Part shown: one piece after another, positions 35,775 through 59,434 of the stretch | Numbering within the stretch: the stretch's first letter is position 1 | How the letters are laid out: every line of letters starts with the position of its first letter | Source of the DNA: Ruditapes philippinarum | Lineage: Eukaryota | Length of the DNA stretch: 64,000 bases | NCBI RefSeq assembly: GCF_026571515.1 | Contig: NW_026852998.1 | Span: 558,001-622,000 of the forward strand | Reading direction: 5' to 3' | Notes under the pieces: model-generated | What the model was told of the DNA's origin: nothing | What the model saw: the letters and a program-made list of their open reading frames with translations, nothing else | Databases searched by the model: none | Translations under genes and position numbers: made by a program

Positions 35775-36224
35775 TTCCTACTTTTAAACAAACTCACGAC
35801 AAGGCTGAACTACTTGGATATATTTTTTGAATATTTAATGTGTGGTCGTTGACTGTTAGACTTTGGATTCGTTGAGCATCATGTAATGTTACTCCAAATT
35901 CGTTTTTGTTCAAACGTCAACCTCTACATTCAACAGTCGACACGTTTGCGAACATCTATGAGTTTTATTTCTTTGTTCCAATAGTACCAATGCTCGTCCC
36001 TACTTGTTCTAAATTTTTCACCATTTTTCCTGTTTGTCGATCGAAGTTTGTTCAATGTATAACCGGAATATTCTTTGACCACAGTTCCAATTTGTTTAGC
36101 ACTTCGTACAAATAGCATAGAACCAGTAACTGATTCAAGTCGTACACAATCTAGTCTAGTTCGTGCAACTATAGCTGCAGATTTTCTACTTGGTCCTAAC
36201 ATTGCCGATTACTCTTTGTACAGT
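35775..36224 (-). pseudogene. Decayed, internally deleted duplicate of the NHL-like gene
   Basis: 36224-35950 aligns with 30204-29930 (SAMLGPSRKSAAIVARTRL vs SAMSASSRKSASRAAQSRL). 35910-35780 aligns with 29577-29455. ATG changed to CTG, early TAA, frameshifts. Confidence 0.82.
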
Positions 36225-37829: not shown

Positions 37830-38725
37830 ACTTTAAGTAGTACAAAACAAAGTTGTTCGTTATATTCATGGTTATTCCTCTAGAAAATCATTGAAAGTTA
37901 TTGATTTTAGCAGTATTGGGTGGCTTAATATAGAAAATAGAGTCATACAGTTAAGACTCAATCATGTACACAAAATATTTAATAAAAAGTGTCCATCTTA
38001 TATGTATGATAACTTTTCTTTAAAGTCTGTTCATTGTTATAATAGTAGAAACAGTGTAGGGAACTTTCATATACCCCATGTTAATAGTTTTACAAAAAGT
38101 ACATTTTTTACCAGGGTATTAGGGATTGGAACATGCTCCCACTTGATATTAAAAAGGAAAGTAACTTTTTTAACTTTAAAAAGAAAGTAAAAGCTGAACT
38201 AAGCAAAAATATGAAACAATTTGAACAAGCTGATTTTATTTTGATAAGTTTTAGAGATAATTGTTTTAATCAATATAGTACATGTTTTATATAAATGTAT
38301 CTTGTGATTGGTTTTGTGATATATATAAATAGATATCTTTCATTGGTGTGATAACTAGTCATATTCATAGTATTATTCCTGCAAATATGTGATATATGTA
38401 ATTAACATAATGTGCAATAGAAAATAATATTATTTGATATCAGTCCAGTAAATCATCTCTAAGTATGGACCTGAATGCCATTTCTCAAGAAAATATATTC
38501 TTTACCATCAAAGGACCCCATTGGAAATAAGTTCTCTATTTTATATCGAACTTTCATGGGTTATCCTGTGTTGTATATATTGTCTTGAAGTCAACAAGAT
38601 CTTGATTTAATTATGAATGTAAAGTTATTATTTTTCAATTTAATTACTGTGTTAAAAACAATGTGATAGATATATCTGTGATAAATTGTCTAAATTTGTT
38701 TTGTAATATGACATATATATACACA

Positions 38726-39161: not shown

Positions 39162-42100
39162 ATGGATCTATTCAGGTATTTTTACAAATAAAAAATTGTT
39201 TAACATAATACATGATTTTCAAATTTACCCAAAAAGACATTTTGCATAACTTTACTCTCTCCTGGTTAAAAAAATATCTGATTATCCATTTTCTCCTGTT
39301 CTCATCATGCTTGTACTGTACATGTTGTAGATTCGTGTCTCTTATTTTGAAATATCGCATATGTGCCAACAATTAATATGAAAAAGGCAAAGCCTCAAAG
39401 CGAGCTCGATTTATTTTTTACCTTGAAAAAGAATGCAATAATCGTTCATTTTTATTTTACATTTTCCGTTTTAAAATTGTCATTTGGTATTTTATACACT
39501 ACTTCCGTTTATTTTGGTTCCCTGTCCCTCTATGGTGAAAATGTAAGTGCACAGGACACCAGTCTACGCTTCCGTTTTCAACCAGAATACATTGGTTTTT
39601 ATCGTTATCTTGTAATTCGAAAAGTTGCGATTTGTCGATTCAGAATTTCAGTACTTCGGACGAAAGTTTTCAAAACCATCATCTAGCAGGTACTCGCTTT
39701 ACCGTAAAGCTCACTTTGCGAGCAGGCCCTTTGGGCCAGCTCGTCGAGCTCGCTACTAAACTGAAATTAATATGAAAAAGGCAAAACCTCAAGGCAAGCT
39801 CTATTTTCTTTACCGTGAAATAGTAATATGAAAAAGGCAAAGCCTCAAAGCAAGCTCGATGTACTTTTAACGTGAAATAGTATGAAATAATCGCTCATTT
39901 TTATTGGATTTAACTCAATACAGGATTGGAGCAGTACCTGTAGACGCTTGCAGAAATCATAATCACAAATTGAAAATAGACAAATATCGTTTTTTTTCGC
40001 CGATTTTTACATTTTTCATTCATTATCTGACATAAATCGGTGTGAAAAGATGAATTAGACGTTATAAAGTTCATTCCGCTGGGTCGAAAAGCAAGATTTT
40101 AGCATTTTATAGTTCAAGCGCCTTGTCCGGTATATACCGGAATACGGTATTTAGTGTGGTGCTCCAATCCTTTTTTTAGTCACACTCATTTTTATTCCGA
40201 GTGCGTGTGACGTCACAAGTACTGTGTTAAATATGGCTATATATATTCACTCTATAATTTTCAAGCGAAATAAAGATTATTAAAAGTGAAATAAATGTAA
40301 AACTTTACACGTTTGCGACATTAAAATAGCGAACTTGATTTGATTGTTTTGCACGTGCTGTTTGGCGCTACATTGTGACGTCACGTAAACAATACTTTAA
40401 ACGTCTGTACAGCGTTAAGACTGAATAAAAGATATTGGTGTTCGGATAAATTTTCTTAGTTCGGCCATTTTCGTTCATTCACAACAAAATTTGACCAAAA
40501 AATGTTTTTATTTATCAGATTTTTCAAACAAAATGGCGCCTTCAATGTGAAAGCTTCCGTTATTCTGGTTCCCTGTCCAATTATGGTTCCCATAGACGTA
40601 CGCGGGTGACCAGTCTACACATCCGTTTTCAGTCAGAATTCCTCAGTTTTTATCGTTATCTTTAAATTCGAAAAGTTGCGAAAGTTTTCAAAACCATCAC
40701 TTTGCAGGTACTCGCGTTACCGTAAAGCTCGCTTTGCGAGCAGGCCCTTTGGGCCAGCTCGTCGAGCTCGCTATTAAAAAACTATCGTTCATTGTTATGG
40801 CTAGCTACTTCTTTTAAACTTTGTTTATTACGCATAATACATGTATATGACATAAACAGAAAGAAAAATATTTGGTTGCTGTCACTTTTGTGAGAATTAT
40901 TTCCCCTTTTTCATGTTTATACAACACATAAATTAAGATGTATATATATTATATTTTGCTTTCAGATTTAAATTTTCACTATCAACACTTACCGGTATGA
41001 AAATTTATAAAACATGGATCAATTTTATAATTCTTTATGTTTTTTAATATAAAAATTCCTCATAAGCTGTTATTTCAATGATCCGGGTTAAACTTAGTTT
41101 GATGCTTAGTTTGCTATTAGTTACTTGCCCCTTCACTGCTTTAAAATGTTGCCAAATAATATCAATGCAGGTAAATACTGAATAGGTCATTTTAGCAACC
41201 TCTCAGGAACAAATGTACAAAATGTATTACATATTTTCGGTTTATTTATATTATGTTGTAATAGATCAAAAGTTTTCATCAGTTTAGTTCAATTTTGTTG
41301 TTGTTTATTTCCATTATAGATCTAAGAAGCGAGATGTTAATCAGGCATCTTTAGAGGATGATGTGGGCCTCCAGAAAAAGCACCATGGTTTGTCAGGATC
41401 ACTAGATGATCTATTAGATATTGGAAAGGATGATGATGATGTCCTTGGTACAGCCTCAGAGAATACAGCCTCAGAATCAGGTAGATTTAATATTACTTAT
41501 ACCATTTCTTATTTCACATAGTTCTGAATGTTTTTGTGTTGTCAGATTCAATAAGTAAATTTTTAGTTATTACTACATGTATATTAGTTTATAAGAATTT
41601 AAGTTTGATTGTTTTAGAGGCCAGTAGCTTATTTAAACACTCTTGAATCCATTTCTGGAACTAACCAGTCCTAAGCATAAGGTGTAAAATCTATTGCTCA
41701 CAGAAACAAGGACTTGCCCCTGATAGGGTATGAATCCATGCAGCCAGCAATCCTTAGATTTCTTGTCCGAATCATTAACTGCTTGGCCACGCAGCCACTC
41801 TGAAAGTTATTGACAAGTCATATTTAAATTTAGAATGCCATGCTGTTTATTTTATTCTTTCAGTTTCAAATGAGGAAAACTTCATTTCAATCTGTATTTA
41901 TGAGGTGGCTGTAAAGTATAGTTAATATAAGTTAGTATCTATAGTTGTATGCATGATGCATACTATGTGTAGACTTTGTTTATGATAAACAGAATTTGAA
42001 TGCATAACATTTCATGTGAAGAAATTAATTCATTTAAGATTTTAAACTTTAAAAGGAGTATTGTTAAGATTTTGTTCTTATATTGATTTATAGATGATGA

Positions 42101-45100
42101 TGATAATGATATTAATAAAGCAAGTAAAAAACAAAAGGCTTTTGCCAAAATTTCAATCAAGCGGGCCAAGCAGAAAGAGAAGGAGCAGAGGAAAAAGACT
42201 GAGAAAAGTAATCTTTAATGTCACTTATTTCATATTTTGATTTAGTTCAGTATTAAGTGTATAAAGCTATATTCCCTGCTGCCTGGCAGCAGTTTACAAG
42301 ATTTATGTTTGAGTTTTGAAAAAAAAAGAGTTACTCCAAAATATTTGTATGACAGATATACATTTTGTATGCTTGTATAGATATATTTTTATATTTCCTA
42401 ATGTGCATGAAGTCTTTGCTAAATGGTTAAAACCCTACTTAAAATATCTGCATAATATTTTGTTCCAGAACATTTTATTCTGTTTATGTGCAGTATTCAT
42501 GTTTGTTAATTTAAATAACTGAAACTTTCTATGATACAACTCTTCAGATAATCAACATATTACCAAGCTCTACGTATCGGTTGTAATTTTATGTGACTAA
42601 ATATACAAATTTCAATTGTCTAAAATTGATGTTATATCATCAGTTTTATTAATATTATTAATATTTATAAGATAATTATGCCATAAGTTGTTATAATATA
42701 TTTAATGCATTTCAGATTTAATATCTATGGAAGATTTCCTTGGTAAACAGACAGAATTCAAGATGTGGCTTTATGAAGAGGTATAAATGAATTATCAACC
42801 ACAATTTATATAAAAAATACTTATTTAGTTTCTGGATAATGCAAAGGCTGTCACACTTTGGTTAAGGTATGCATGCAAGTTGGTATCTCCAAAACAACTG
42901 GAACTTCACACACTTAGATAATAGGATGTCACTGTTCAAGGTACATAACTCAGTTAGTAACTCTTGCATGGATTTTGACAGAGGTATGACCCTTTGTCAA
43001 CTTAGAAAATTCTTCATCAACAAGGCTCTTGTTTAACTATCTAGTACTGGAATAGTCAAGCACTTTGTTCTACTGACAGTACTTGTTCTTAATATGAATC
43101 ATTCTTTGAGTCTCATCACCAATGATATGGATATGTTTCTCCACCCCCCCCCCCAAAAAAACTTACAGGCTCTTTACTGTACCAGACACATGTATATTGT
43201 TCTGTAGTTGTTTTTTAAATTGAATTTTCTAGCCTGCTTAATGCTATGATAAATGAAGTTGACAACCTTTGTCCATTTTATAGAATAAGAGGTAAACTAG
43301 CATAATTTAGTAAACTTAAATGTTAGTTAATAGATATATTTAAACTCTTACTCAGCTGCAACCAAGAGTGAGTAGCATTTGCTTCCACCGTAAAACTTGG
43401 TCAGGATGCACATCCATACAGTCTGGCCAAGCTCCATACTGTTTGTTTATCATCTTTAAATTTCCCTAACTATATAATGGAAAGTTTGAAGAAAAGGAAC
43501 TGGACAAGTTCATTTTATGAAATTCACCAGACTAAATAGTAATTAAATGATATGTTAAATTATATTGTACAGAAAAGCAAGAATGCTGGAGAAATGTCAT
43601 CACCAAAATTGAAAGCTCATTTTAAACAGTTTGTGAGATTATGGAACAAGAAGAAACTGGCAACAGTAAGTACTTAAAAAGCAGCCTTCATCTTTTCTAA
43701 AGGTGAAATATCGATTCATATAATTATCAGATCAAAAGAATTAAGGTGGAAAATGAAGTTTACAGACAACAAAATACATAAACAATATGTAAACCCCTTG
43801 ATACCTCTAATCTAACGGTTCGCTCTCTAACTTTAAATGAGTAAAGGGCCTGGGGACGATTAGTTTCCCAATCTTCTGATTTTAAAAACGACCTCACATA
43901 CATATGCATTATAAATAGCTCTCCGGATGCTGTTTTGAAGAAGGCTTAACAGTGATATGATGCACATTTCCATTATTAAATTACTGAAATAATTAGTTGG
44001 AAACAACACAAAATTGTTTTTCCAACAGAAAATTAAAGCTGAAGGCCGCTTTAATATCTTTTGACAAGAGCTATTAGTAGATACATGGAAATCTTTGTAT
44101 AGCAACATCGTTTGGTAGACAGAAATGTTGGTTGCTGCTGAGAGTTGTTGATCGACAGATGTCAAAACTATATTGTTAAGTCTTACTTTGGGTAAAAACG
44201 ATACTGTTTTAACTTTTTGTACAGAGGTGACTGGTCTATAGAGGGTCGCTCTGCAAATCTTAAGCTGTACTTGAATGCAAAAATAATATCATAAATATGA
44301 CAGGCTTTTAAAAGTCAGCCAATCAATCAAATAGACCAGTTAGGCTGTCAAAGTCAGGGTGTTTATTTGACCTGAGACCTTGAGGCTTCAGTGGCTGAGT
44401 GGATCTAGGTTAACTTCAATCGACTTTCCTGTCATCGCTGTAGGTTCGAGCCGCACAAGCCTTGTCGAGATTCTGCATGTGAGAAAGTTAGTTTACAGAA
44501 CGTCAGTGGTTCTACTCAGGTGCCTGTTTGTGCCTGAAATAATGTACAGAGGGACACCTGAGCACTGACTTGACACAGGGTGTATCACATAGTGAAGGTT
44601 ACAGTATTTTTATATGAAACCAGAACTATATTTATTCTGAATTAATTTTTATGCAATTTCTCATAAATTTTGTAACTTAATGAAACGCCTTTAAACTAAA
44701 AAAGGACCATCAAAATTATATGCTTTCTACATGTATTTATAGAAATATTACCGATGTTCAACTTTGCCAGAGAGTCCTGCTCCTCTGACACCTCAGAAGT
44801 TTAACTTTCTGTCAGATGAAGTAACTGAAGGAGGGAGTCCTCTCTTCCATGATCAGGACAGTGAAGCTCCTGAAAAAGATGTTCTAGCATCGCCATTTGT
44901 CACATTTGGCAAGACACCACCAAAGGTGTTCAGATCAAAGAAATTTCAGTTTTTTGGTTCTTCTGGGTCATCTAAGGAAGTTGCACTTGTAAGTTTTTTC
45001 ATCAGATTTTGTTCTTAAAAGTTTTCTCTAAGCATTTTAGACACATTGTTTAACAGTAAATGGTTTAAGCCAGCAAATTTGTCTTCTTTATTTTAACTTT

Positions 45101-48100
45101 TGAACTGCTTATTTGTGATACTTGATTCCAATGTTTTAAGATAGACAACATGCAAACCTGGCATTTCAGGCTCCCTGATTTAAGGTCAAGGTCACAGTAA
45201 GAGGTCCTTGGTTCAACCTAGAATTTCTTGTTTGTCTTGTAACTTTTGAGCTGCTTAACAGATATTAATATTACATGGGTCAAATGTTTAACTCTGAGAC
45301 AATTTATAAACTCCACCTGATTGTTATTAACTTTCTTGTCCAATCAAACTTTTGAACTACTTAAAGGATGTTGATGATACTTTGGCAGAGCAAGCATTTG
45401 AGGCACCACATTATCATAATAAGGTCAAGGTCTTAGTTTATAGTCAAATATTTTAGTCATTTATTTTGTATCCACCCTTCGTCTCTCAAACTGTTATTAT
45501 TAATTTATATTCTTAGTTTAAATTTCATTGAGACAGAAAAAGCATTTTCTATGATATGTTTCAGGTGGGGTTCTATCTCACTTGAAATATTACTTTTTAA
45601 CCAGGTTTTCAACGAAAACCGGGTTATTGTAATGCCGAAGTCGGCGGGCGTCAACTTTTGGTTTCCGCTCAATAACTTTAGTTTGCTTTGGCCTATTGAC
45701 ACCAAACTTGGTGTGTAGGTAGCTTATATCAAGAGGCAGCTTGGGATTGCTACCCAGGTGTCTGTGATCAAGGTCAAGGTCACTGTTACTAAAAATAGAA
45801 ATTCAGTTTCCGCTCAATAACTTGAGTTTGCTTTGGCCTATTGACACCAAACTTGGTGTATGGATAGCTTATATCAAGAGGCAGCTTGGGATTGCTACCC
45901 AGGTGTCTGTGATCTAGGTCAAGGTCACTGTTACTAAAAATAGAAATTCAGTTTCCGCTCAATAACTTGAGTTTGCTTTGACCTATTGACACCAAACTTG
46001 GTGTATGGATAGCTTATATCAAGAGGCAGCTTGGGATTGCTACCCAGGTGTCTGTGATCTAGGTCAAGGTCACTGTTACTAAAAATAGAAATTCAGTTTC
46101 CGCTCAATAACTTGAGTTTGCTTTGGCCTATTGACACCAAACTTGGTGTATGGATAGCTTATATCAAGAGGCAGCTTGGGATTGCTACCCAGGTGTCTGT
46201 GATCAAGGTCAAGGTCACTGTTACTAAAAATAGAAATTCAGTTTCCGCTCAATAACTTGAGTTTGCTTTGGCCTATTGACACCAAACTTGGTGTATGGAT
46301 AGCTTATATCAAGAGGCAGCTTGGGATTGCTACCCAGGTGTCTTTGATCAAGGTCAAGGTCACTGTGACTAAAAATAGAAATTCAGTTTCTGCTCAATAA
46401 CTTGAGTTTGCTTTGGCCTATTGACACCAAACTAGATGAATGGGTAGCTTATATCAAGAGGCAGCTTGGGATTGCTACCCAAGTGTCTGTGATCAAGGTT
46501 AATGCATTTAGTTTTCATGTTGTAACTTGAGTTTGCTTTGACCTTTTGACACCGAACTTGCTGAGTGGCAGCTTTGGATTGCCACTCAGATATCTGGGAG
46601 CAAGGTCAAGGTAATTTGCTTACAATAGAATTTTCAGTATCTACTCAATAACTTCAGTGCATTTTGACCTATTGATTGCTGTCACATCAAAACTAGGTCG
46701 TTGAAAACCTGGTTTTCGTCGCATTGCGGCGCTTCTTGTATCCCATTAAATTTTCATTCTAACATATACTGGCCTATATTGGGTGTGTTAGTTTGATATG
46801 TTTATTTTGTTATCATTGTAATGTTAATTTGCTTAGAGCTGTCATTGATAGAGACAATATCGATGTATCGTTCATATTTTTCTGCCAATCAATAATCGAT
46901 ACACATTTGAAGAAAACGATAAATATTATTATTTAAATATTTATTAATTATGAAAATGCGATCAAAACATATACAAAAACAGATGACTATGTCTAACACT
47001 AAGTTGTATTTACATTATGGACGTATTTTATATTGTAATGACAAAATATGATCAGAAAAAAATCATGCAGAGGACACCTATAAACAAGGCACAACATATT
47101 TGTATGAACAGAACATGTATTTTACTAAAATCATTTAAAGGGGTATAAAAATGAATTATATACAAGAAATTAGGAGTCAGTAGTTATTTATATATTGGTG
47201 TATCACTGATATTTGTATTTCAATATCGATGTACGGTCAATATGCTTTGCACTGAATCAATGACAGCTCTAATTTTGTTATCATATGTTATGTTTATTTT
47301 GTTATGTTTTGTTTATTTTTTGTTTTAGTTATCTGTTGCGCCCATAGGTTCCCCACAAGTTGTACAAATGGAAAAAGAAAATATTTCTAAAGAACAGGTA
47401 TATGTAGTTTAAATTTTAATGCTTTTACTTTGTTCAGAAATCTCCTTATTTAGAAAAGAAGAATGACTTTTTATGCCATTACTTGATTTTGTTATCATAA
47501 AAAGGGGACAGTACTCCATGGATTACCTTGAACTTGTTTGTGGTTTATTTGATTTATTTTATTTTAGACTTTAATGTGCAAAAGACAGTTGAATAGTTTG
47601 TTTACTGGTTCTGTTTATATTGCAAATACACTTAGGAAGTTAAAACTTTACAAAATTAAGCAAATAATTGTGGAAAAAAGTCTGGCAAGACTACTATTTA
47701 GAATTTAACATTTTAAAGTTTAAATCTTAACTAAATTTCAGGCTTTAAAGTTTATTGATATGGGTTTAGAAGAAAGTTTCTTAAAATGAATTTTGTGTGA
47801 TTACATACAGCCATATTCATCCTTCTTGTTTTATGTTGATATTTTTCTTATTTCCTCTAAAGATATCACCTTGTCCATCCTTAAGTCTGTCGAAAATGGG
47901 GTCATATCATAACTTTTGTTGTTCTTTTATCATAAGACAATATTGTGCGTGCAAGATTGAGTTCCTTGAATGTTCACAGACACAGGCTGAGTCAATCAAC
48001 CTAAAATGGATTTTATTTTTCGGTATGGTCGATGACTTTGTGATGTTAAAATGACTTGGCACAGTCAAGTGTACTGCATGTAAGATCAGGGTGGACAAGG

Positions 48101-51100
48101 TCAAGGTTACATAAAGGTCAAAGGCCAAACATGGAATAATTTTTTCTGGGTTCTATCCTTTATTCCTTGATGGGTTTTAAAATTACAAGGCATAAATGTT
48201 CACCATTGGGATCCAAGTCAAATTCTATTGTCAAGAGTAATCTTACAGGGCATAAATCATCTTTTGATAATAAAAATGATATTGATGCTTTTTGTAAAAG
48301 TCTTGTTAACACATTATTATTTATGTCTGCAGGTAAAATTTGTTATTTTCAGATATTACTATATAGTGTTATGATAGTATTAGTGAATATAAGTCATATA
48401 CAATAATGTCAGCTTTTGTTTTAGTACCAGGTACCAAAGCTACGCAAAAAGAAAGAATCTGGCGATGACATTCAGAAAATGTAAGTATATTCAACAGCAG
48501 AGATAACTAACTACCTATGTCATAAATAAAGAGCCAGAACAGCTTTCTTATGAAGTCTGACCAGGCTCTATACTCTATACTGATGATTGCTCAGTTTTAT
48601 TGTTTTGATACTAAAATCTTTAAAACCAACAACGGACAGGTCCAAATTAACAGCTGGACATGTTCATTGTACATAGTTGACCAGTGTCTGGATCTTATGC
48701 CCAATATAATGTGTATATTTATATTGTATATTTATATAAACATTTACTGTTTTAAAACTCTTATAGTTAACCTACTTAATTATGGGAAATAAAGTCCTTT
48801 AAATGAAAGTCATAAAAATTAGGATTAAGATAGAAAAGCAAATGTTCTGCCGAGAGATGACCAAATATTTTTAACATCAGCATAAAACCCAACCAAACAT
48901 GTCAATGATCTTTTTTAAGTCTCAGTATTAAACTGTTTACTTATTGCAGGCTGTCCAGCGTCCCTAAAATTCCTAAAAAATCCTAATTTTTTTCAGTATG
49001 GCTAATATTCCTAAAAAAAATGAAAAATTCAAAGGGAATTCCTAAAAAAGCCCTATTTTTTCACTTAAATTCCTATTTTTTTTATCTTCTGTGATAAACA
49101 TATTGCGAAACAACCATGTTTCAATCACAACCTAAATTCGAACAGTCAGTGGAGCTGATGTCATGTCTGACTAAATTGCATAAAGTCACATGTTGTATTT
49201 ACTTCAACTCCTGCAGAAATGTACTTGATAAATTGTCAGATGTTATCATAAAAATAATAAGAAACTGTTTGTTTTAAATGGAACAATGAAAATTGTCTGA
49301 CTTTGACTATATCAAAATTGTCACCTGTTTAAAATTTTGATAAAAAAAATTTCCAAGGAAGTTACATTTTTATTGGCTACAGAGTTTTACCATTTACCTC
49401 AGTCTTAGGTGTATTCAAAGCAACTTTTTACATGATGTACCACTGAATTTCATCAAACTTTATGTAGGGGTCCTTATTAATAAAATCTTAATTTGTAATC
49501 AAGTTATTTTCAAGTGATGACTGTATAACAGATCTTTTGTAAGTGATACCAGCTGGTAGATCTAGACAAGTTTCAATATTTGCTAATTATAAAGTGGGTA
49601 AAGTAAACTGGCAGTAATTATTGGATGCTTTAACCATTTTGCTACCCAATTAGCATACTAAGAAGTGACACCTTCAGCTACCCTTTTTGTACACATTAAC
49701 ATGTTCTGAACACATGCTATAACATATAGTGTAAGTTTTTTTTAATCTGGAAAAAAAAACTGTCGAAAATCATTGAAAAAGGTGATACTGTTGTGAAATT
49801 TTCTACAATTTTTAGTAGCCTGATTTATCATGAACAAATTCTTCATAGGAATATATACCCTGCTGTTTGAATTTAAGTTTTAATATTCCTGGGAATGACT
49901 TGAGTGGGTCATATCGTTTTTATTGTTTTTTAAGAAAGATCAAGACTTGTTGAAAATGTACCAACCTTAAAATAAATAAATGTTGATAAGAAAATGCATT
50001 TATAGCTAAAAGCTAAAATAAATTTAAAGCATTATTTCCCCTTCCATTTATTATTGGCTAATCATAGCTTAACTAATTGAATATAAGTTGTTCCGGTAAA
50101 CTTATAACTTTGAAAATGTTTTCATTCTAGTTATGTTTTAATGTAGTTTTTCAGCTCTTTTTAAAGGCAGTTGACCAGTGAATCCATTTCTTCACTGGTG
50201 ACTATGGAATACTGGTAACACCTCTACTATAACCGAACTAGAACATTATTTGTGAGTTACTTTTGTGTCAAATATGCAAATTTGAGTCCATATTATGGTC
50301 TTTTGAGGCCATAATTTAGTTATAAAATTTCAAATTTTAGCCCTAAAATTTCTTTTGTTTACCCTAAAATTCCTAATTTTAGCCCTAAAATTTCTTAAAA
50401 ATTGCCCTAAAATTTGCCCTAATTTTTTGTCAGAAGGTGCTGGACAGCCTGTTATTGTCCCCCGCCTTTTCGAAGAAAAAAGGGGGATATAGAAATAGGC
50501 TCTGTCCGTCTGTCTGTCTTTCCGTCGGTCTATTTTGGGTTTAGGGGCTATATGACAGTAAAGAGAATAGGTTCATTCTGTGATCAAAGAGTTTATGGGC
50601 TGGTAGCCCTTAAGAAAACAAAGAAACTAACAAAGAAAATAGCCTCTAAACCCAAAATGTTGGAACGTCTGTCCGTCCGTCACACTTTCGTGTCCGGTCC
50701 ATAACTTTGTCATTTATTAAAGGAATCTGAAATAACTTGGCACTAATGTTTGTTATAATAAGACGATGTGTCATGCGCAACAACCAGACCCCTACCTCCA
50801 GGGTCAAGGTCGCACTTGCTCATTCAAGGTCAACATTGTCTATTTGAGGGTATATGTCGTGTCCGGTACATAACTTTTTTATCTTTTAAGGGATTTTGTA
50901 AATACTTGCCACAATTGCTCACAATAATGAGTAGATGTGTCATGCGCAACAATCTGTCACCTACCTCCAAGGTCAAGGTCACACTTGGAGGTCAAAGATT
51001 AACAAAGTCTGTAACAGGGTATATTTCGTGTCCGGTCCATAACTGTCATTTATCAAAGGAATTTGAAATATCTTGGCACAAATGTTTGTTATAATAAGAC

Positions 51101-54100
51101 GATGTGTCATGAGCAACAACCAGACCCCTACCTCCAGGGTCAAGGTCGCACTTGCTCATTCAAGGTCAACATTGTCTATTTGAGGGTATATGTCGTGTCC
51201 GGTCCATAAATTTTTGTGCCCCCACTTTAGTGGCTGGCATTTAGATTTACCCTTGTCCTCGGTCCATCCGTTCTCTTTTGTGTCGCACGTAAATCAAAAA
51301 GTATTTGACCTAGAGTCATGAAACTTTACAGGAATGTTGATCAGCATGTGTAGTTGTGCACCTGGGTAGTTTCATCTGGATATTTTTAGTATTTTTAGAG
51401 TTATTGCCCTTGACTTAGTAAAATTTTGTAATTTTTCAACGTGTGTTGCATGTAACTCAAAAGTATTTGACCTAGAGTCATGAAACTTTACAGGAATATT
51501 GATCAGCATATGTAGTTGTGCACCTGGGTATTTTCGTTTGGATTTATTTAGTATTTTTAGAGTTATTGCCCTTGACTTAAATTTTTTTTTGTAATTTTCA
51601 ACTTGTGTTGCATGTAACTCAAAAAAGATTTGACATAAAGTCATTAAACCTTATGGGAAGGTTGCTCAGCATATTTAGTTTTGCACCTGGGGTTTCGTGG
51701 ATTTATCCAGTATTTGTTATTTCCCTTGACTTAGTAAAAACCATTTCATTATGATGTTATTTGTTCCTTGAGTGCTTGAGTTAGAATCAACCAACTTTAC
51801 AGGAATAATGATCAACATCACTAAATTACAGAAATAATGATTCACATCACTGTGAAGCTATGCAACTGAGACTTTGCATGTGGATTTTTTTCAGTTTTGT
51901 TAGAGTTATTGCCCTTGACTTACAGAAGTATAAATTTGCAATTTTCAACTTGTTCATGCATAGCTCAAAAGGTATTTCACTTGTAGGCCTGAAAGTTTAC
52001 AAGAATGTTGGTCAGCATGTGTACGTATGCGCCTTGGGGTTTGCTTGTGGATTTATTCAGTATTTGTAAAGTTCTTGCCCTTTACTTAGTAAAAGATTTT
52101 TAGTTTTCAAAAAATATTAGACCTAGAGTATATGTTACATGGTATATTTTATGTCCCGTCCATAACTTCTTCATAGAACAAGGGATTTTGAAAATATTTG
52201 GCACAAATAGTCACAATGATAAGATGATATGTCATGTGTAACACCAGTGTCCCTACCTCCAAGGTCAAGGTCACATGTAGAGGTCAAAGATTAACATAGT
52301 CTCTTAGAGGGTATATTTTGTGTCCCATCTATAACTTTTTCATAGTTCAAGGGATTTTGAAAATACTTGGTACAAATAGCTACAATAATAAGACGATATG
52401 TCATGCACAACACCTGGACCCCTACTTCCAAGGTCAATGTCACACTAAGAGGTCAAAGCTTAACATTCTTTTTTTTTCTTTAATAAATTTATTGTTGCAT
52501 TTGCAGATCTAGCATTGATCATAATTTTGGACTGAAAGTCCTTTAATCCATACCTCAATCTTTTTAAATAGCACAATTTTATGCTTCATATAAAACTTCC
52601 CTTGAAACTTGAAACTTTTTATTTAATTAAACGCCTGTTTCTATTTAACAATATTCAACTGCGTTGTACAGTACATATAAATAATAAGAATAAAATTGTG
52701 AATGCATGAGAATATGTGGATCAACATCAAGTGAAATAAAAGCTTTTACATACAATTCCAATTAACATATTTTTAAAAAATTGCAGAGACCATGAAATGA
52801 TAAAACTGATTGATATACATGTAGCATGAGATAAGATTATGTACATACATGTAACTTGATTACAAATAGATTAAAAAGAATAAAACATTCATTTACATTG
52901 CACATTCATCACACTGTCAGTTATCAGTTATACGTTACTCATGTTTATCTCAATTCAGATTTTAAAATAGTGATTCAAACTTTCTGAAAAAATGTGTTTT
53001 AAGATTTCTCTTAAATACATCAATATTCTTAGATTGTTTCAACTCTAATGGCAGCGGATTCCACAATTTTGGACCAATAGTTCCAAAACTTCTGTCACTA
53101 AATGTTTTTCTTTTATTGAATGGAATAATGTAGCAGTTCTCAGAGGTTTTAGCTGAACGTAGTCGGGTATTTGGTACTTGTTTGGTTAGGAGTCCAGAAA
53201 GGTATTTTGGAGCATGACCGATTGAACAATTGTATACAAAAAGTCAAAATTTTATATTCGATTCTAGATTTGATGGGCAGCCAGTGAAGGTCGAACAGTG
53301 CTTGCCTTGAACTGTCAAATTTCTTTCGTTGCAGAACTAACTTAGCGCACATGTTTTGAATACGTTGCATTTTTTTCAATTCAAAATCGGATACACCATA
53401 AAGAATGACATTGCAATAATCCAAGTGTGACATTACGAGTGCTATAACTAGTATTTCAGCTGCTTCTTTGGTGAGGTATTTTCGGATACGTTTTATTCTA
53501 AGATAGTTTAACATTGCTGTACGGCACTTTCGTTTGACATGTTCCTTGAAATTTAGTGTTTGGTCTAGAAATGCGCCTAAATATCTAATGGACTCCTCGG
53601 AGTTGATCTTATCTCCGTTAATACAAATGGATTTTAGGTGACACTTTTCGAGTTGTTGAGAACTTCCAAATGTTATGAACTCTGTTTTCGATGAGATCAT
53701 CTTGAGTTTATTAGCGTTCATCCAGTTCATCCCCGAGGCGGGGGACGTTGGTAACTGTTACAAATTCTTGTTAGGGGAGAAATTGTGTAAGCAACCAGAG
53801 AGCTTAGCCAGTGCAGCCTTGGTATGGTATTCCAAGGGTCTTGGGGTTCGAGTCCTGTTAGATTGACATTTAAATTACAATTTGTATTTCAACATTAAAT
53901 TTTATAAAGACAAGTACACAAGTAGCTCTTGATATGAATTTTGTAGTATAAAAGATTATTACATATCATTGATGTATTTTATACTTTTCAGGCCTAGAGG
54001 TGCTACTCCGTACAAGGTTTCAATGTTTCCATGGGTATCAACAGAAGTAAGCGAGAATGACCAATCAGATGATGTTGATATTTGCTCTACAGCTACTCCT

Positions 54101-56242
54101 CCAAGTTTTAACCTACAAGAGGAGGAGGAGTCTTGGCCTCCGCCACCCTCAGATAGCGAGTTACTAGGTGAACACACAACAAGAACTCATGATTCACCAC
54201 ATGTACCTCCACCCCCTCCTCCTAGAATGGGAAGTCTGAAGAAAAGGGAATGTACTTCAAACTCTCCAAAACTGGCTGGTAACTATGCAGATCCGTATGA
54301 TAAACTTCCAGATCCACAGTCTAAACAGAGACTTGTTACTTCTCATTATCAGGACCCTGTAGACTGTGTTCCTCTTGTAAAACAGAGAACCATTCCGGAA
54401 GATGCTAAACTTGTTCTCCAGAATTTGGCAGGAAATGATGAACCAGATTTGAGTTTGTATTCTAAACCTGTGAAAGAGAAAAGATTAAGCAAAGAGGAAT
54501 TGGAAGAACTTTATGCAAAACCTCTCAAGAAAGCAAAAAGAAATAATATTGGCAGTCTATCAGAAGGTACAGAAAAGCCTGAGCCAGTCTCTGGTGAACC
54601 AAGTGATTTGTACAATGAAATAATGGAACATATAAACAAAAGCAGTTCAGAAGACACTAGTAAGATAACAAGTTTTAAACCCGACCCTGATTATGAAACA
54701 ATTGATGAGTGTCTTGCCAAGGTTAACAGTGAATCCAGTGAAAGTAAAGGCCATATTAGGGAAGTTAAAGATGATACAAGGAAAGTAAAAGATATGATGG
54801 ATAAAAGTGGAGAAGAAGGTACACAAAAGTTTGCTACAATTTCACGGTCAAAGAAAATGAGGGTAATGGCTGCTTCAACTGAGAAAATCTATGAAACCTA
54901 CCTGAGTCTAGGAAGGAATGCAAACCCTTTCAAAGGGAAAACGGATATCCCAAAATTACCAGACACAGCTTCAGACTTTAACTCTGGTCCCTTTACACAT
55001 TCCTTGAAGTTGAAATCTAAATCTCAACCAGACATTTCATTCAGTGAAGGACTTCAAACATTTGATATAGATATGAACAAAGACCAGGATCACTTAAGTT
55101 CTGTTCCTCAGTTCAGCTCTTTCAAACCAATTGAAAATAACAAAAGCACACATAAAGATAGGAATGAAAATAAATTGAAAGACAGCGGAAGAGCTAAAAG
55201 TTACGAGGATGGTTTAAGGAACATAGAAGAGCCAAGAACACCAATTATAATGGCCACACCATCATTTGATTCTCTCTGTAATGTGACACCTCTTAGTTGT
55301 AAATCTTTTTCATCACATAGCTTGCCAAATAAGTCTGGGTCATATGAGAGCTTGTCTTCCCAAAGTCACATGTCAACCTCAACTAATTCAAGCCTTTCAT
55401 TTGGCCCAGATGATAAATCTGGCTCACTTCAGAGCTTGCATTCTGACAAATCACTTTCACCAGTAAAAGAAGAAGAGGAATTTGATCAATGCATGGATGC
55501 AAAGAATGAGTTAAAAACTAAAGTTGAATTACTTGGAAAACAAAATACGAAAAGTCTGACACATGAACCTGTGGACTCTGTGAATGGTGATTTTGAATCA
55601 GTTAAAACAAATGTTGTTCCTTTGACCCCAGGGAAAATAAGTGCTCTAAAACATGGAATAGATTTATCAGTGTATCTACTGAAACCTGCAAAACAAGATG
55701 ATAAAAGTAAAGAAAATGTCCCTGAAAATGAGAAGACTTTGCAGACAACATTAGACAGCCATGTGCGAAAACCTAAAAAGACTGGTGAACCTCTTGTCAA
55801 TCAGAAACTGTTTGATAACCAATCAAGGTTAGCTATAAAAGATAAATTGTCTGGGGTGAAGACCAAAGTTGATGTAGGGAAGTCCTCTTCAAGGAAGGAA
55901 ACAGAGAGGCGACATACTGTACAAACAGTTCAAGATATCCCTGTAAAATATGAAGATGCCATGACCGTAACTAATGCGGCAAAAAGTAGAAAGGGTGAGA
56001 CTGTTTTGTATGGAAAGTCAAAGTTTGAAGAAGGTTTTAATGGAAGTGATGAAAGCTTGCATTGGCCAGATAGCAAGAGACATTGTGGAGATAAGAAACG
56101 TATGTTAACTGTAGATGACCACTATCTTGAGACTGATCTTGATAAAGTGATCACTGATAAAAGCCGGAGGTCAATGAAGAAAAGTAAAAGTCACAGTGGT
56201 TTTGATACAGGCACTAGTACAGTTGTAACAGATATCTGGTAG
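39162..56242 (+). CDS. Nine-exon gene, 1022 aa: SCI1-like helical domain plus long disordered tyrosine/proline-motif tail (uncharacterised)
   Basis: Exons 39162-39175, 41320-41480, 42094-42207, 42716-42780, 43573-43665, 44743-44988, 47329-47397, 48425-48480, 53992-56242. All introns are GT-AG, phases 2,1,1,0,0,0,0,2 are consistent, and the total of 3069 nt is one open frame. Confidence 0.8.
39372..40775 (-). mobile_element. Tandem array of a HINE-like element (two long copies plus an extra terminal fragment) in intron 1
   Basis: The ~70-bp GC-rich end GCAGGTACTCGC...GAGCTCGCTA occurs at 39687 and 40705. The other end AATATGAAAAAGGCAAAGCCTCAAAGC occurs at 39375, 39769 and 39825. SubTIR GCGAGCTCGA at both ends. 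Confidence 0.72.
41320..41480 (+). CDS. SCI1-like gene, exon 2
   Basis: TTATAG| ... CAG|GTAGAT; open frame SKKRDVNQASLEDDVGLQKKHHGLSGSLDDLLDIG... Confidence 0.78.
41612..41800 (-). mobile_element. tRNA-derived SINE (CORE-like body)
   Basis: Minus strand: GTGGCCAAGCAGTTAA A-box-like head, GGATTCATACCC decayed B box, TTGTTTCTGTGAGCAA...CTTAGGACTGGTTAGTTCCAGAAATGGATTCAAGAGTG body. Confidence 0.55.
42094..42207 (+). CDS. SCI1-like gene, exon 3 (acidic then Lys/Arg-rich, NLS-like)
   Basis: TTATAG| ... AAA|GTAATC; 114 nt, phase 1-1. Confidence 0.78.
42716..42780 (+). CDS. SCI1-like gene, exon 4 (first half of the SCI1-like domain)
   Basis: TTTCAG| ... GAG|GTATAA; NLISMEDFLGKQTEFKMWLYEE. Confidence 0.8.
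43573..43665 (+). CDS. SCI1-like gene, exon 5 (second half of the SCI1-like domain)
   Basis: GTACAG| ... ACA|GTAAGT; KSKNAGEMSSPKLKAHFKQFVRLWNKKKLAT. Confidence 0.8.
44378..44562 (+). mobile_element. tRNA-derived SINE (bivalve-type)
   Basis: A box GTGGCTGAGTGG, B box GGTTCGAGCC, body shared with 30862-30981. Confidence 0.7.
44743..44988 (+). CDS. SCI1-like gene, exon 6 (KYY end of domain, then SP/TP-rich segment)
   Basis: TTATAG| ... CTT|GTAAGT; overlaps ORF 44764-45018. Confidence 0.82.
45594..46739 (+). mobile_element. HINE/pearl-like element with ~7 x 145-bp near-identical tandem repeats
   Basis: SubTIR AACCAGGTTTTCAACGA / TCGTTGAAAACCTGGTT; units at 45661/45806/45951/46096/46241/46386; 3' CGTCGCA-TTGCGGCG hairpin + CTTGT end. 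Confidence 0.9.
46834..47271. mobile_element. hAT-type MITE (TAG ends)
   Basis: 16-bp TIR TAGAGCTGTCATTGAT / ATCAATGACAGCTCTA; internal ATCGAT repeats; degenerate 8-bp TSD (AATTTGCT/ATTTTGTT). Confidence 0.72.
47329..47397 (+). CDS. SCI1-like gene, exon 7
   Basis: Long T-rich acceptor TTTTAG| ... CAG|GTATAT; 69 nt, phase 0-0. Confidence 0.72.
48425..48480 (+). CDS. SCI1-like gene, exon 8
   Basis: TTTTAG| ... AAT|GTAAGT; the phase-2 end fits the acceptor at 53991. Confidence 0.75.
48947..50451. mobile_element. Non-autonomous TIR transposon with CAGG ends and 6-bp TSD (hAT6-like)
   Basis: 13-bp TIR CAGGCTGTCCAGC / GCTGGACAGCCTG; TTATTG on both flanks; clusters of CCTAAAA/CCTAAT subterminal repeats. 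Confidence 0.8.
51211..52135 (+). mobile_element. Second HINE-like element nested in the host array
   Basis: New 5' end TTTTTGTGCCCCCAC interrupts a host unit; different ~165-bp tandem unit; 3' end not recognisable. Confidence 0.68.
52601..53730 (-). mobile_element. L2-clade LINE, 5'-truncated (RT C-terminal region + 3' UTR)
   Basis: WMNANKLK..SKTEFI...RYLGAFLDQTLNFKEHV...SHLDYCN..LYG...QRIQN..AKLV...LHWLPIKSRIEYK; frameshifted tail WNPLPLEL..FKTHFF; 3' (GTTTCAA)n tail. Confidence 0.9.
53992..56242 (+). CDS. SCI1-like gene, large terminal exon 9 (low-complexity, probably disordered)
   Basis: Acceptor TTTTCAG at 53991; ~750 open codons in AT-rich DNA; S/K/E/D/P-rich; no folded domain recognised. 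Confidence 0.88.
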
Positions 56243-57599: not shown

Positions 57600-58480
57600 T
57601 TACAAAAGTTTGGGTGGGTATATAGGAGTCACCTGGTGGTTGGTCAGTCCAGCATTTTCCTTGTCCGGAGCTTGAAGAACTTGAAGACTAATGGTTGGAA
57701 TTCAATACAACTTCATACAATGGTCAAGCACATTGAGAGGAAGTGCAGTGCACAAGAACCATAACTCCATCTTGACTAATTACAGAGTATTTGACCTTTG
57801 TTACTTTTCCTTGTCCAGAGCATAACTTGAAAACTACTAGTTGGAATTCAATACTATTTCATACAATGGTCAATATATTGAGAGGAAGCCCAGTGCACAG
57901 AAACCATAACTCTTTCTTGACTCATTTAAGAGTTTTTGCCCTGTGTTATTTTTAATTGTCCAGTGCACAACTTGAGAATTCAATGAAACTTCATACAATG
58001 GTCAAGGGCAGTGAGATGAAGTGCAGTGCACAAGACTTATAGTTGGAATTCAATACAACTTCATACAGTGGTCAAGCGCGATGAGAGGAAGTGCAGAGTA
58101 CAATAACCATAACTCAATCTTCAGTATTTGTAGAGTTCTTGCCCTTTGATCATCATTTTCCTTGTCCAGTGCATAACTTAAAAACTAATGTTTTGGAATT
58201 CAATGCAACTTCATACAATGGTCAAGCGCAATGAGAGGAAGTGCAGTGCTCAAGAAGTGCAACTCTTTCTGGACTTTTTACAGAGTAATCCAATGAAACT
58301 TCATCAATGGGCAACCACATTGAAAGGAAATGCAACATACAAGAACCACAACTATCTTTAATTGCCCACAACCATAACTATATTTCAATTGTTTTACAAG
58401 GTATTCTGTTACTAGTAACTTCCTCATTTCCAAAGCAGTCTTGCTGGGGTATTAATCACATTTAGTGATAGTTCTAGTTC
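57600..58480 (+). mobile_element. Degenerate HINE/pearl-like element with ~150-bp tandem units
   Basis: Repeated GAATTCAAT..AACTTCATACAATGGTCAAG..GAGAGGAAGTGCAGTG; 3' GGGGTATT + ATCAC..GTGAT hairpin + TCTAGTT. Confidence 0.75.
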
Positions 58481-58562
58481 AAATCTGTTTATAAATAAGG
58501 AAAATGTGAAATTTCTTGAATTTTCAAAAATTAATTAAACAGATTTTATATGTCCGCGTTCC

Positions 58563-59434
58563 ATTTTTATGCTCCCCGAAGGGTGAGCATATAGTCGCCG
58601 CTTTGTGCGTCCGTCCCCTTTTCTTGTCCGGGCCATAACTGAAACAACAAGAGGTATCAACATGAAACTTTGTAGGTAGATAGATCACATTGAGTAGGTG
58701 TGCAGTGCACAAGAATTGTAACTCTGCCTTGCCTAATTTTTAAATTATTGCCCTTTGTTTATTTTACACTTAGAACTTTGTCCGGGACAGAACTCCAAAG
58801 TATAAGAGATATCAACATGAAACTTTGTAGGTAGATAGATCTCGTTGAGTAGAAGTGCATTGTTACAGAATCATAACTCTGTCTTGCCTAATTTTGGAGT
58901 TATTGCCCTTTGTTAATTTTGTCCGGGACGTTACTCTAAAATTATAAGAGATATCAACATGAAACTTTGTAGGTAGATAGGTCTCATTAGGTAGAAGTGC
59001 AGTGCTAAAGAACCATATCTCTGCCTTGCCTTATTTTGAAGTTATTGCCCATTGTTTATTTTTACTTTTTGCCTTTTGTCAGGGACATAACTCTAAAACT
59101 ATAAGATATCATCATGAAACTTTGTAGGTAGATAGATCTCATTGGATAGAACTGCAATGCTAAACAACCTTAACACAGCCTTGTCTAGTTTTAGAGTTAT
59201 TGCCCTTTGTTCATTTTTACATTTTGAATTTTACCCGGGACACAACTCTGAAGCTATAATCATCACGAAACTTTATAGGTAGATAGATCTCATTGAATGG
59301 AATTGCAGTGCAAAAAATAAATAATAACTCTGCCTTGCCTAATTTTGGAGTTTTTGCCCTTTGTTTATTTTATTATACTTGCCTGTGTCCAAAACCTTCT
59401 CGGGGAGCATCACCCGGTTCAACATGTTCTTGTC
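58563..59434 (+). mobile_element. HINE/pearl-like element with ~5 tandem units of ~145-160 bp
   Basis: SubTIR ATGCTCCCCGA / TCGGGGAGCAT; GTCC microsatellite; repeated CATGAAACTTTGTAGGTAGATAGATC. Confidence 0.85.

What the first reader, a model, noticed from the sequence alone, without database searches (positions are those of the whole stretch)
39162..56242. Novel architecture: SCI1-like domain fused to a ~750-aa phosphotyrosine/SH3/14-3-3-type scaffold tail
Seen: one continuous 1022-aa frame. After the domain come SP/TP sites (ESPAPLTPQK, KTPPK), poly-Pro (WPPPP, PPPPPPR), clustered tyrosine motifs (YADP, YQDP, YSKP, YAKP, YNEI, YETI), basophilic sites (KSKSQP, RAKSYE, RRHTV, KSKSHS) and an acidic YLETDLD...TDIW end. 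Known: YxxP repeats are Crk/Nck/Abl SH2 docking sites in Cas/Dok-type adaptors, and plant SCI1 is a small nuclear protein. Inference: an animal-specific fusion coupling an ancient nuclear cell-cycle/RNA-processing module to tyrosine-kinase signalling. This is the best candidate for an undescribed system in the window.
Basis: partly seen in the sequence, partly recalled or inferred. Interest (0 to 1): 0.75.

Follow-up and report, generated by a model that had tools for sequence, protein, structure and literature searches.

The report
Clam SCI1 protein with WAVE-binding motif
A real, spliced clam gene encodes a relative of the plant nuclear protein SCI1 that has grown a long tail predicted to be unfolded, and it carries a six-letter motif, kept from amphioxus to snails, that likely docks it on the WAVE complex that builds branched actin.

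Summary
Nine GT-AG exons give a 1022-aa protein identical to an uncharacterised RefSeq clam protein, and single RNA-type contigs join the domain exons to exon 9. The domain is Pfam SCI1_hairpin. The tail is predicted disordered, and its Tyr/Pro motifs are conserved islands in related bivalves.

Two corrections. (1) It is probably not a fusion. Deuterostomes, sponges and a placozoan have a 300-390 aa form, and the long lophotrochozoan forms look like internal expansions of that gene: an annelid keeps the ancestral C-terminal helix. (2) The YxxP cluster and 14-3-3-type sites are specific to one bivalve clade. Only one Abl-type site and an ETD[IL]D motif are mollusc-wide.

It is in 37 of 38 named bilaterian homologs and 0 of 19 sponge, placozoan, fungal or plant ones. 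It matches the WIRS motif by which protocadherins bind the WAVE regulatory complex. Best reading: a soluble WAVE-complex ligand built on an ancient, probably splicing-associated module, with tyrosine-kinase docking sites added in molluscs. No binding was tested.

The parts
39162..39175 (+). Exon 1 (start codon)
   Evidence: GT donor; translation equals P0021
41320..41480 (+). Exon 2, acidic/Ser-rich N-terminus
   Evidence: RNA contig variants at 41362 and 41410
42094..42207 (+). Exon 3, Lys/Glu-rich helix (aa 67-96, 42117-42206)
   Evidence: AlphaFold2 helix H67-96; a similar basic stretch precedes the hairpin in short forms
42716..44754 (+). SCI1_hairpin domain (PF27660), aa ~99-153, spliced from exon 4 (42716-42780), exon 5 (43573-43665) and the start of exon 6
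   Evidence: two helices H101-121 and H129-151
44743..44988 (+). Exon 6: end of hairpin, SP/TP sites, degenerate copy (KFNF) of the ancestral YKWKF motif, WIRS-type motif
   Evidence: the KFNF correspondence is by position and eye, the island test was weak (2 of 24)
44896..44913 (+). FVTFGK, aa 201-206: WIRS-type motif predicted to bind the WAVE regulatory complex; flanked by SP and TPPK
   Evidence: 37 of 38 named bilaterian homologs, 0 of 19 others, 24 of 20000 shuffles; in a pLDDT<50 segment; same form as PCDH10/18 FSTFGK and PCDHA FITFGK (PMC10318009 Table 1)
47329..47397 (+). Exon 7, skipped in isoform X2
   Evidence: 125-nt gap in the X3 contig
48425..48480 (+). Exon 8, begins with Tyr255 (YQVP, a fifth YxxP)
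   Evidence: Y[QEL][IV]P in 11 of 28 mollusc-type long forms
53992..56242 (+). Exon 9, 2251 nt, disordered tail of about 750 aa and stop
54134..54226 (+). Proline-rich motifs WPPPP and PPPPPPR (candidate SH3/WW/EVH1 ligands, class recalled)
   Evidence: poly-Pro kept in 18 of 20 orthologs
54284..54523 (+). YxxP cluster: YADP, YQDP, YSKP, YAKP; LYSKPVK and LYAKPLK fit the Abl consensus
   Evidence: Y and +3 P kept in 18, 19, 15 and 18 of 20 orthologs; [ILVM]Y[AST]xPx[KR] in 22 of 28 mollusc-type long forms against 0.25 expected; consensus from PMC4532999
54611..54904 (+). YNEI, YETI and the invariant KIYETYL island
   Evidence: Y kept in 14, 18 and 20 of 20 orthologs
55019..55033 (+). KSQPD, best candidate 14-3-3-type site (consensus recalled)
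   Evidence: SQP kept in 20 of 20 close orthologs; 0 of 24 distant long forms
55625..55687 (+). Conserved 21-aa island (aa 818-838), function unexplained
   Evidence: short predicted helix H820-826
56123..56143 (+). YLETDLD; ETD[ILF]D is a mollusc-wide motif near the C-terminus, partner unknown
   Evidence: 19 of 28 mollusc-type long forms against 0.1 expected
56180..56239 (+). KSKSHS ... TDIW end; possibly the remnant of the ancestral terminal motif ending in W
   Evidence: SKS and T-x-I-W kept in 20 of 20; only pteriomorph ends score as the ancestral end, the clam end does not

Best explanation
[quoted passage not shown] Shown: gene structure, splicing, domain identity, motif conservation, distribution. 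Predicted: disorder, three N-terminal helices, no hydrophobic membrane segment. Inferred history: step 1, an ancient 300-aa eukaryotic protein (basic N-terminus, hairpin, YKWKF, ELxPK block, terminal helix); step 2, gain of FxTFGK in the bilaterian ancestor; step 3, the region between that motif and the C-terminus expanded in lophotrochozoans; step 4, molluscs fixed one Abl-type site and ETD[IL]D; step 5, heteroconch bivalves multiplied the YxxP and basophilic sites. Inferred mechanism: the motif binds the Sra1/Abi surface of the WRC; kinases phosphorylate the YxxP sites, which recruit Crk/Nck-type SH2 adaptors; the C-terminus (class I PDZ-type end in many relatives, T-x-I-W in bivalves) places the complex; the hairpin supplies a further, unknown partner or nuclear targeting.
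For: FxTFGK is in 37 of 38 named bilaterian homologs (28 FSTFGK, 6 FVTFGK, 2 FGTFGK, 1 FITFGK; Watersipora has only ISSFGQ) and in 0 of 19 named sponge, placozoan, fungal and plant homologs; 24 of 20000 shuffles of the clam protein give it. It lies 41-108 aa after the hairpin. Its flanks are not conserved: outside positions -2 to +8 no residue exceeds 13 of 36. It fits the published WIRS definition and lies in a disordered stretch, as that motif requires (PMC10411975). It equals the PCDH10/18 and PCDH-alpha motifs (PMC10318009). Non-membrane WIRS proteins exist: Non-stop/USP22 (PMC6693919) and TgWIP, which combines WIRS, proline-rich regions and phosphotyrosines (PMC12691643). Abl-type site in 22 of 28 mollusc-type long forms. 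Class I PDZ-type ends in 10 of 31 long forms against 3 of 58 motif-less homologs. Expansion: the Owenia end matches the ancestral terminal helix (16.3 bits, E 1.5e-05 among 32 proteins); the ends of Mytilus, Argopecten and two unnamed forms are the best window in their proteins for the ancestral 14-mer. Highest hydropathy window 0.96.
Against: No binding, phosphorylation or localisation data. All patterns were chosen after seeing the sequences, and related species are not independent. A consensus WIRS can be idle in cells (HSV-1 gE, PMC8209697: title and passages). Short deuterostome forms carry the motif beside an otherwise ancestral, basic protein, and plant SCI1 is nucleolar and speckle-associated, so the motif may serve a nuclear partner. 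The YxxP excess is absent from 23 of 31 long forms; chiton, Lingula, Biomphalaria and Tubulanus have no YxxP at all. Only 1 of 32 long forms matched the ancestral terminal helix, the clam's own end ranks 132 of 1009 windows, and the pteriomorph scores lean on the terminal W. Bilaterian monophyly in the domain tree is weak (69/90).
Confidence: 0.5

Rival explanations
1. The protein keeps the ancestral nuclear, spliceosome-associated job of the SCI1 family. FxTFGK binds a nuclear partner (or nuclear WRC), and the tail is a regulatory or condensate-forming extension.
For: Plant SCI1 is nucleolar and in speckles and binds CDKG2, cyclin L, RH35, U2A', NKAP and CACTIN (PMC13552211 passages; PMC9013909 passages). 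The hairpin is the best-kept part of the protein and the N-terminus is net basic. Short deuterostome forms keep both the motif and the ancestral YKWKF motif, most also the ELxPK block. No separate short mollusc copy appeared among 49 hits, so the long form may carry the old job.
Against: Long forms have lost the ELxPK block and eroded YKWKF. They gained Abl-type tyrosines and PDZ-type ends, which are typical of cortical proteins (generalisation from established knowledge).
Confidence: 0.25
2. One reading: a true fusion of a nuclear SCI1 module to a separate Cas/Dok-type adaptor tail, coupling RNA processing or the cell cycle to tyrosine-kinase signalling across animals.
For: The tail is one large exon behind a 5.5-kb repeat-rich intron. 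YxxP excess and conserved islands in heteroconch bivalves.
Against: No donor family found. Short forms in deuterostomes, sponges and a placozoan. Ancestral C-terminus retained in Owenia. No SH3, PH, PTB or FAT domain, and only three confident helices. Tails of other molluscs share only 3-4 short motifs.
Confidence: 0.1
3. The tail is a fast-evolving disordered expansion whose motifs do not add up to one pathway; the WIRS match is a conserved site for some unrelated cytoplasmic partner.
For: Tail length runs from about 300 to 2200 aa; many named sites are clade-limited; Tyr926 and Tyr946 are kept in 0 of 20 orthologs and the Y of RAKSYE in 5 of 20.
Against: The match is to the six-residue form used by several protocadherins, not only to the loose consensus. 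The Abl-type site is kept at a similar place, 119-263 aa after the motif, in bivalves and gastropods.
Confidence: 0.15

Closest known systems
[quoted passage not shown]
   Same: Helical hairpin domain near the N-terminus behind a basic region; plant SCI1 also binds a 14-3-3 protein (PMC9013909).
   Different: Tobacco SCI1 is 154 aa. The clam protein is 1022 aa with FxTFGK, YxxP and poly-Pro motifs; FxTFGK was absent from all 16 named plant and fungal homologs.
Short animal homologs (amphioxus, hemichordates, echinoderms, sponges, Trichoplax; all uncharacterised)
   Same: Hairpin; FxTFGK in the 14 named deuterostome records; terminal W in many.
   Different: About 250-390 aa; they keep YKWKF and mostly the ELxPK block and terminal helix; no Abl-type tyrosine (0 of 16) and no ETD[IL]D (0 of 16).
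WIRS-bearing WRC ligands (PCDH10, PCDH18, PCDH19, PCDH-alpha, Robo1; Non-stop/USP22)
   Same: Same hexapeptide form in a disordered region.
   Different: Most known ligands are transmembrane receptors; this protein has no hydrophobic segment and no homology to them outside the motif.
TgWIP (Toxoplasma protein), as a functional analogue
   Same: Non-membrane protein combining WIRS, proline-rich regions binding Nck/Grb2, and kinase-phosphorylated tyrosines (PMC12691643 passages).
   Different: A parasite protein acting on host cells; sequence homology was not tested and is not expected; it has no reported SCI1 domain.
Cas/BCAR1-type docking proteins
   Same: Clustered YxxP motifs, the Crk SH2 consensus (PMC5043372).
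   Different: BCAR1 orthologs have an SH3 domain, 6-25 YxxP motifs and a FAT-like domain; the clam protein has 5 YxxP and neither domain.

Membership tests
SCI1_hairpin family (PF27660) | Match to the family profile | tested here: met
   Precomputed PF27660 on the clam protein and orthologs; atlas hits share SCI1_hairpin; a profile of the clam-type domain retrieves 400 proteins at E<=0.001, including ones later named as fungal. The model is not in the local Pfam copy.
SCI1_hairpin family (PF27660) | Two-helix hairpin fold | tested here: met
   AlphaFold2 helices 101-121 and 129-151, block pLDDT about 60-75, 7-sequence alignment; prediction only.
Plant SCI1 (functional sense) | Nuclear/nucleolar location, binding to CDKG2, RH35 and spliceosome factors, inhibition of proliferation | not testable with these tools
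   Features from PMC13552211 and PMC9013909 passages.
WIRS-type WRC ligand | Consensus hydrophobic-x-T/S-F-x-x | tested here: met
   FVTFGK at aa 201-206; definition in PMC10411975 and PMC8096436.
WIRS-type WRC ligand | Motif in an unstructured region | tested here: met
   Within segment 149-345 with pLDDT<50; low pLDDT from a shallow alignment is a proxy for disorder.
WIRS-type WRC ligand | Conserved across orthologs | tested here: met
   37 of 38 named bilaterian homologs; flanks variable.
WIRS-type WRC ligand | Motif-dependent binding to assembled WRC | not testable with these tools
Cas/BCAR1 adaptors | N-terminal SH3 and C-terminal FAT-like domain | tested here: not met
   No Pfam family at E<=0.1; no beta structure and no confident C-terminal domain in the model.
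Cas/BCAR1 adaptors | Substrate region with 6 or more YxxP | tested here: not met
   5 YxxP in the clam, 4-6 in most close orthologs; range 6-25 from PMC5043372.
Dok adaptors | N-terminal PH and PTB domains (recalled) | tested here: not met
   No Pfam match; the N-terminus is the SCI1 hairpin.
Abl substrate / Crk-Nck SH2 ligand | I/V/L-Y-x-x-P/F consensus | tested here: met
   LYSKP and LYAKP; consensus in PMC4532999; conservation.
Abl substrate / Crk-Nck SH2 ligand | Tyrosine phosphorylation and SH2 binding in cells | not testable with these tools
   No phosphoproteomic data were examined.
14-3-3 client | Conserved basophilic pS-x-P site (consensus recalled) | tested here: inconclusive
   SQP kept in 20 of 20 close orthologs, upstream basic residue variable; not found in 24 distant long forms.

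The most novel reading that the evidence does not exclude
An undescribed family of soluble WAVE-complex ligands arose at the base of Bilateria, when an ancient splicing-associated SCI1 protein gained a protocadherin-type WIRS motif. Molluscs then rebuilt its C-terminal part into an Abl/Crk phosphotyrosine scaffold. No vertebrate, arthropod or nematode member turned up among the named hits, which would explain why it is unstudied. It would be a direct physical link between an RNA-processing module and Arp2/3 actin control.
Probability: 0.35. Interest if true: 0.75.

Novelty: new variant of a known kind. Interest (0 to 1): 0.55.

Why it matters
Known WIRS ligands are mostly membrane receptors. 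A soluble ligand kept across deuterostomes and lophotrochozoans would be a missing regulator of branched actin in invertebrates. It would also be a clean, staged case of a nuclear protein being rewired by short-motif gain: hairpin in eukaryotes, WIRS in bilaterians, pTyr sites in molluscs, a motif cluster in one bivalve clade. The key claim can be tested with one peptide pull-down against human WRC. If the motif is idle, this is an ordinary lineage-specific disordered protein.

Tried and rejected
Pfam scans of exon 9, exon 6, 7 full-length close homologs and 41 further homologs gave no domain in the tails. The only hits were an HLH in the Pinctada model, probably a merged neighbour gene because the family's usual end lies at its aa 709-722, and weak low-complexity hits.

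Sequence searches of the PDB with the domain profile and the short-form profile gave nothing below E 0.4. Fold searches with the full-length model gave only generic helical matches (best Z 5.5; Foldseek none at E<=0.001). The domain was not folded alone, so this says nothing on fold novelty.

No listed run is on record as RNA ('no RNA holder listed'); the intron-free contigs are the evidence.

The 146-row tree did not finish its careful search; the quick tree needed 4 changes for the motif against 32.4 in shuffles. A loose basophilic pattern R-x(1,2)-S/T-x-x-P was no commoner than chance (22 of 28 against 22.05). Fifteen of 20 heteroconch tail islands were found in 4 or fewer of 24 distant long forms.

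No vertebrate, tunicate, arthropod, nematode or cnidarian name appeared. Only 20 of the 146 new representative hits were looked up directly, some more were named, and the atlas lists only large clusters, so absence is not shown.

That the WIRS-binding surface is animal-specific is recalled from Chen et al. 2014, which I did not read; the search did not confirm it.

Literature: 'SCI1' with 'WAVE regulatory complex' gave 0 papers; 'FSTFGK' gave 1, on protocadherins; none of the 15 listed of 4,059 papers held SCI1. The library holds only CC-licensed PMC papers and bioRxiv. No supplements were opened. Earlier scan notes: nothing found.
Full report
1. Observation. The window is a eukaryotic, intron-rich sequence. 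Nine exons on the + strand between 39162 and 56242 have GT-AG borders. With the exon 8 acceptor at 48425 they give 1022 aa, identical to stored protein P0021, an uncharacterised Ruditapes philippinarum RefSeq protein (XP_060573008.1). A second isoform skips exon 7. Contigs of four public runs from four studies were laid on the locus. In X3 one contig covers exon 6 and exon 9 with exactly the 125 nt of exons 7 and 8 between them, and 165 nt beyond exon 6, which fits exons 5 and 4. In X1 one contig holds 840 nt before exon 9, against 818 nt for exons 1-8. The splice rows themselves were crowded out of the joint table by repeats, so the linkage is read from lengths and depths. Independent gene models in six other bivalve genera also join domain and tail. 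Exon 9 is therefore part of the same transcript.

2. The domain. Sources annotate PF27660 on the protein, which the atlas names SCI1_hairpin. AlphaFold2 on a 7-sequence alignment gives a long helix at 67-96 and a hairpin at 101-121 and 129-151; 909 of 1022 residues have pLDDT under 50. No solved relative was found by sequence or fold.

3. The family. A profile of the domain found 400 representatives at E<=0.001, 37 at <=1e-10, and 150 were listed. I looked up 20 of these, and a search with nine short forms named more (49 hits). Molluscs (20 named genera, from bivalves, gastropods and a chiton), the annelid Owenia and the brachiopod Lingula have long forms of 709-2442 aa. A bryozoan and a nemertean have 501 and 433 aa. 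Amphioxus, hemichordates, echinoderms, two sponges and Trichoplax have short forms of about 250-390 aa that resemble the fungal ones, with YKWKF, usually an ELxPK block, and a terminal helix. In a tree of 52 named domains cut before the motif, molluscs form a clade (98/90); the 36 bilaterians are one side of a branch with weak support (69/90). No short mollusc paralog appeared among the 49 hits, and no vertebrate, arthropod, nematode or cnidarian name, but these searches cannot show absence.

4. Expansion rather than fusion. The tail matched no family, and its sequence relatives were long forms of this family or unnamed tail-only records. Owenia ends with the ancestral terminal helix after about 750 extra residues (16.3 bits, E 1.5e-05, the only clear hit among 32 long forms). 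The ends of Mytilus, Argopecten and two unnamed forms are the top-scoring windows for the ancestral terminal 14-mer; Saccostrea ranks second. The clam end does not score (rank 132 of 1009), and the test leans on the final W. The simplest history is growth and turnover of the region between the motif described next and the C-terminus. This is inferred.

5. At aa 201-206 (44896-44913) the clam has FVTFGK. F-x-[TS]-F-G-[KR] occurs in 37 of 38 named bilaterian homologs and 0 of 19 named others (3 non-bilaterian animals, 14 fungal, 2 plant records). Among the 146 other listed representatives, 31 have it and 115 do not (58 of those are at least 250 aa). Shuffles of the clam protein give it 24 times in 20000. 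The pattern was defined after seeing it and relatives are not independent, but it persists in both deuterostomes and lophotrochozoans inside flanks that share almost nothing. Papers define the WIRS as hydrophobic-x-T/S-F-x-x in unstructured sequence, binding a surface formed by Sra1/CYFIP and Abi (PMC10411975 and PMC8096436, passages). A review table lists FSTFGK for PCDH10 and PCDH18, FITFGK for PCDH-alpha and FATFGK for PCDH19 (PMC10318009, passages with part of Table 1). Twenty-eight of the 37 homologs carry FSTFGK itself, and Potamilus carries FITFGK. Non-membrane precedents are Non-stop/USP22 (PMC6693919, passages) and TgWIP (PMC12691643, passages). A caution is HSV-1 gE, whose consensus motif bound in pull-down but, by the paper's title, does not function in recruitment (PMC8209697, listing and passages).

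6. The tail motifs. Against 20 close orthologs (6 named full-length, 14 unnamed tail records), mean tail identity is 0.40 and Tyr is the best-kept residue (0.68). Y plus the +3 residue is kept in 18 (YADP), 19 (YQDP), 15 (YSKP), 18 (YAKP), 11 (YNEI) and 17 (YETI) of 20; the poly-Pro in 18; SQP, SKS, LETD and the final W in 20. Against this, Tyr926 and Tyr946 are kept in 0 of 20 and the Y of RAKSYE in 5. Further out most islands vanish: KSQPD, RRHTV, KSKSHS and ATPSFDSL were found in 0 of 24 distant long forms, and a YxxP excess at p<=0.05 holds in only 8 of 31 long forms. Among 28 mollusc-type long forms (20 named, 8 unnamed), three motifs persist: [ILVM]Y[AST]xPx[KR] in 22 (0.25 expected), ETD[ILF]D in 19 (0.1), and a Y/F...W motif at the start of the tail in 14 (0.16). 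None occurs in 4 other lophotrochozoans or 16 short forms. The first fits the Abl consensus I/V/L-Y-x-x-P/F (PMC4532999, passages) and the Crk SH2 consensus pYxxP (PMC5043372, passages). Ten of 31 long forms end in a class I PDZ-type motif (definition recalled) and 12 in T-x-I-W, against 3 PDZ-type ends in 58 motif-less homologs. There is no hydrophobic segment.

7. How it most likely works. I commit, at 0.5, to a soluble scaffold that binds the WAVE regulatory complex through FVTFGK and, in molluscs, is phosphorylated by Abl/Src-type kinases to recruit SH2/SH3 adaptors, with the C-terminus placing it. The SP and TPPK sites around the motif could tune binding; that is speculation. Binding to WRC alone I put near 0.65. 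The main rival (0.25) is retention of the nuclear splicing-linked role reported for plant SCI1 (PMC9013909 and PMC13552211, passages); the two could coexist in a shuttling protein. The role of the hairpin in the clam protein is unknown; my guess is that it still binds a conserved nuclear partner.

8. Comparison and novelty. It is a member of the SCI1_hairpin family by profile. It is not a Cas or Dok protein (no SH3, FAT, PH or PTB), though it may work like one in its tail. It meets the sequence criteria of a WIRS ligand, with binding untested. The proteins are annotated only as uncharacterised or under low-complexity names. I found no paper linking SCI1 to the WAVE complex (0 papers) in a library limited to CC-licensed PMC papers and bioRxiv; no supplements were opened. 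Each part is a known kind; the combination and its staged history appear undescribed. Verdict: real gene, new variant of a known kind, interest 0.55.

Noticed in passing
window 20298-21278 and 22555-23607 (+): Two tandem, apparently intronless HAD-family phosphatase genes (Hydrolase_6 plus Hydrolase_like), 63% identical over 328 aa.
   Followed up: partly
window 28981-30207 (-) and 35933-36208 (-): A 409-aa frame with weak NHL/beta-propeller hits and a shorter related copy, 53% identical over 58 aa; looks like TRIM/NHL-type gene fragments (family guess from recall).
   Followed up: partly
window 2097-2759 (-): Frame whose start looks like the first exon of a type II membrane protein, recalled as resembling Golgi alpha-1,2-mannosidase; no Pfam hit.
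   Followed up: no
window 52962-53757 (-) and 37837-38190 (+): Frames that read like the C-terminal end of non-LTR retrotransposon proteins (by eye; no relevant Pfam hit); the first lies inside intron 8 and is covered by contigs in the laid runs.
   Followed up: no
window 45661-46499, 50688-52466, 57678-59372, 14179-14829, 25133-26116: Tandem arrays with periods of 142-169 bp; also 42-bp arrays at 61620-62984 and a 23-bp array at 13059-13705. Those at about 50.8-52.1 kb and 57.2-57.8 kb draw very high contig depth.
   Followed up: no
P0035 (Pinctada model): The family's usual end lies at aa 709-722 and is followed by an HLH domain at 800-853; probably two neighbouring genes merged by annotation.
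   Followed up: partly
window 55625-55687 and 54884-54904 (+): Two nearly invariant tail islands in close orthologs (aa 818-838 and KIYETYL), each with a short predicted helix; no explanation found.
   Followed up: partly
P0157 (Corticium, sponge): At the place of the bilaterian motif the sponge has a near-miss lacking the second Phe; a possible precursor or decayed form.
   Followed up: no
window 48425 and 48431: Two in-frame AG acceptors 6 nt apart at exon 8; the upstream one adds the Tyr of a fifth YxxP and is the one implied by the RNA contig lengths.
   Followed up: partly
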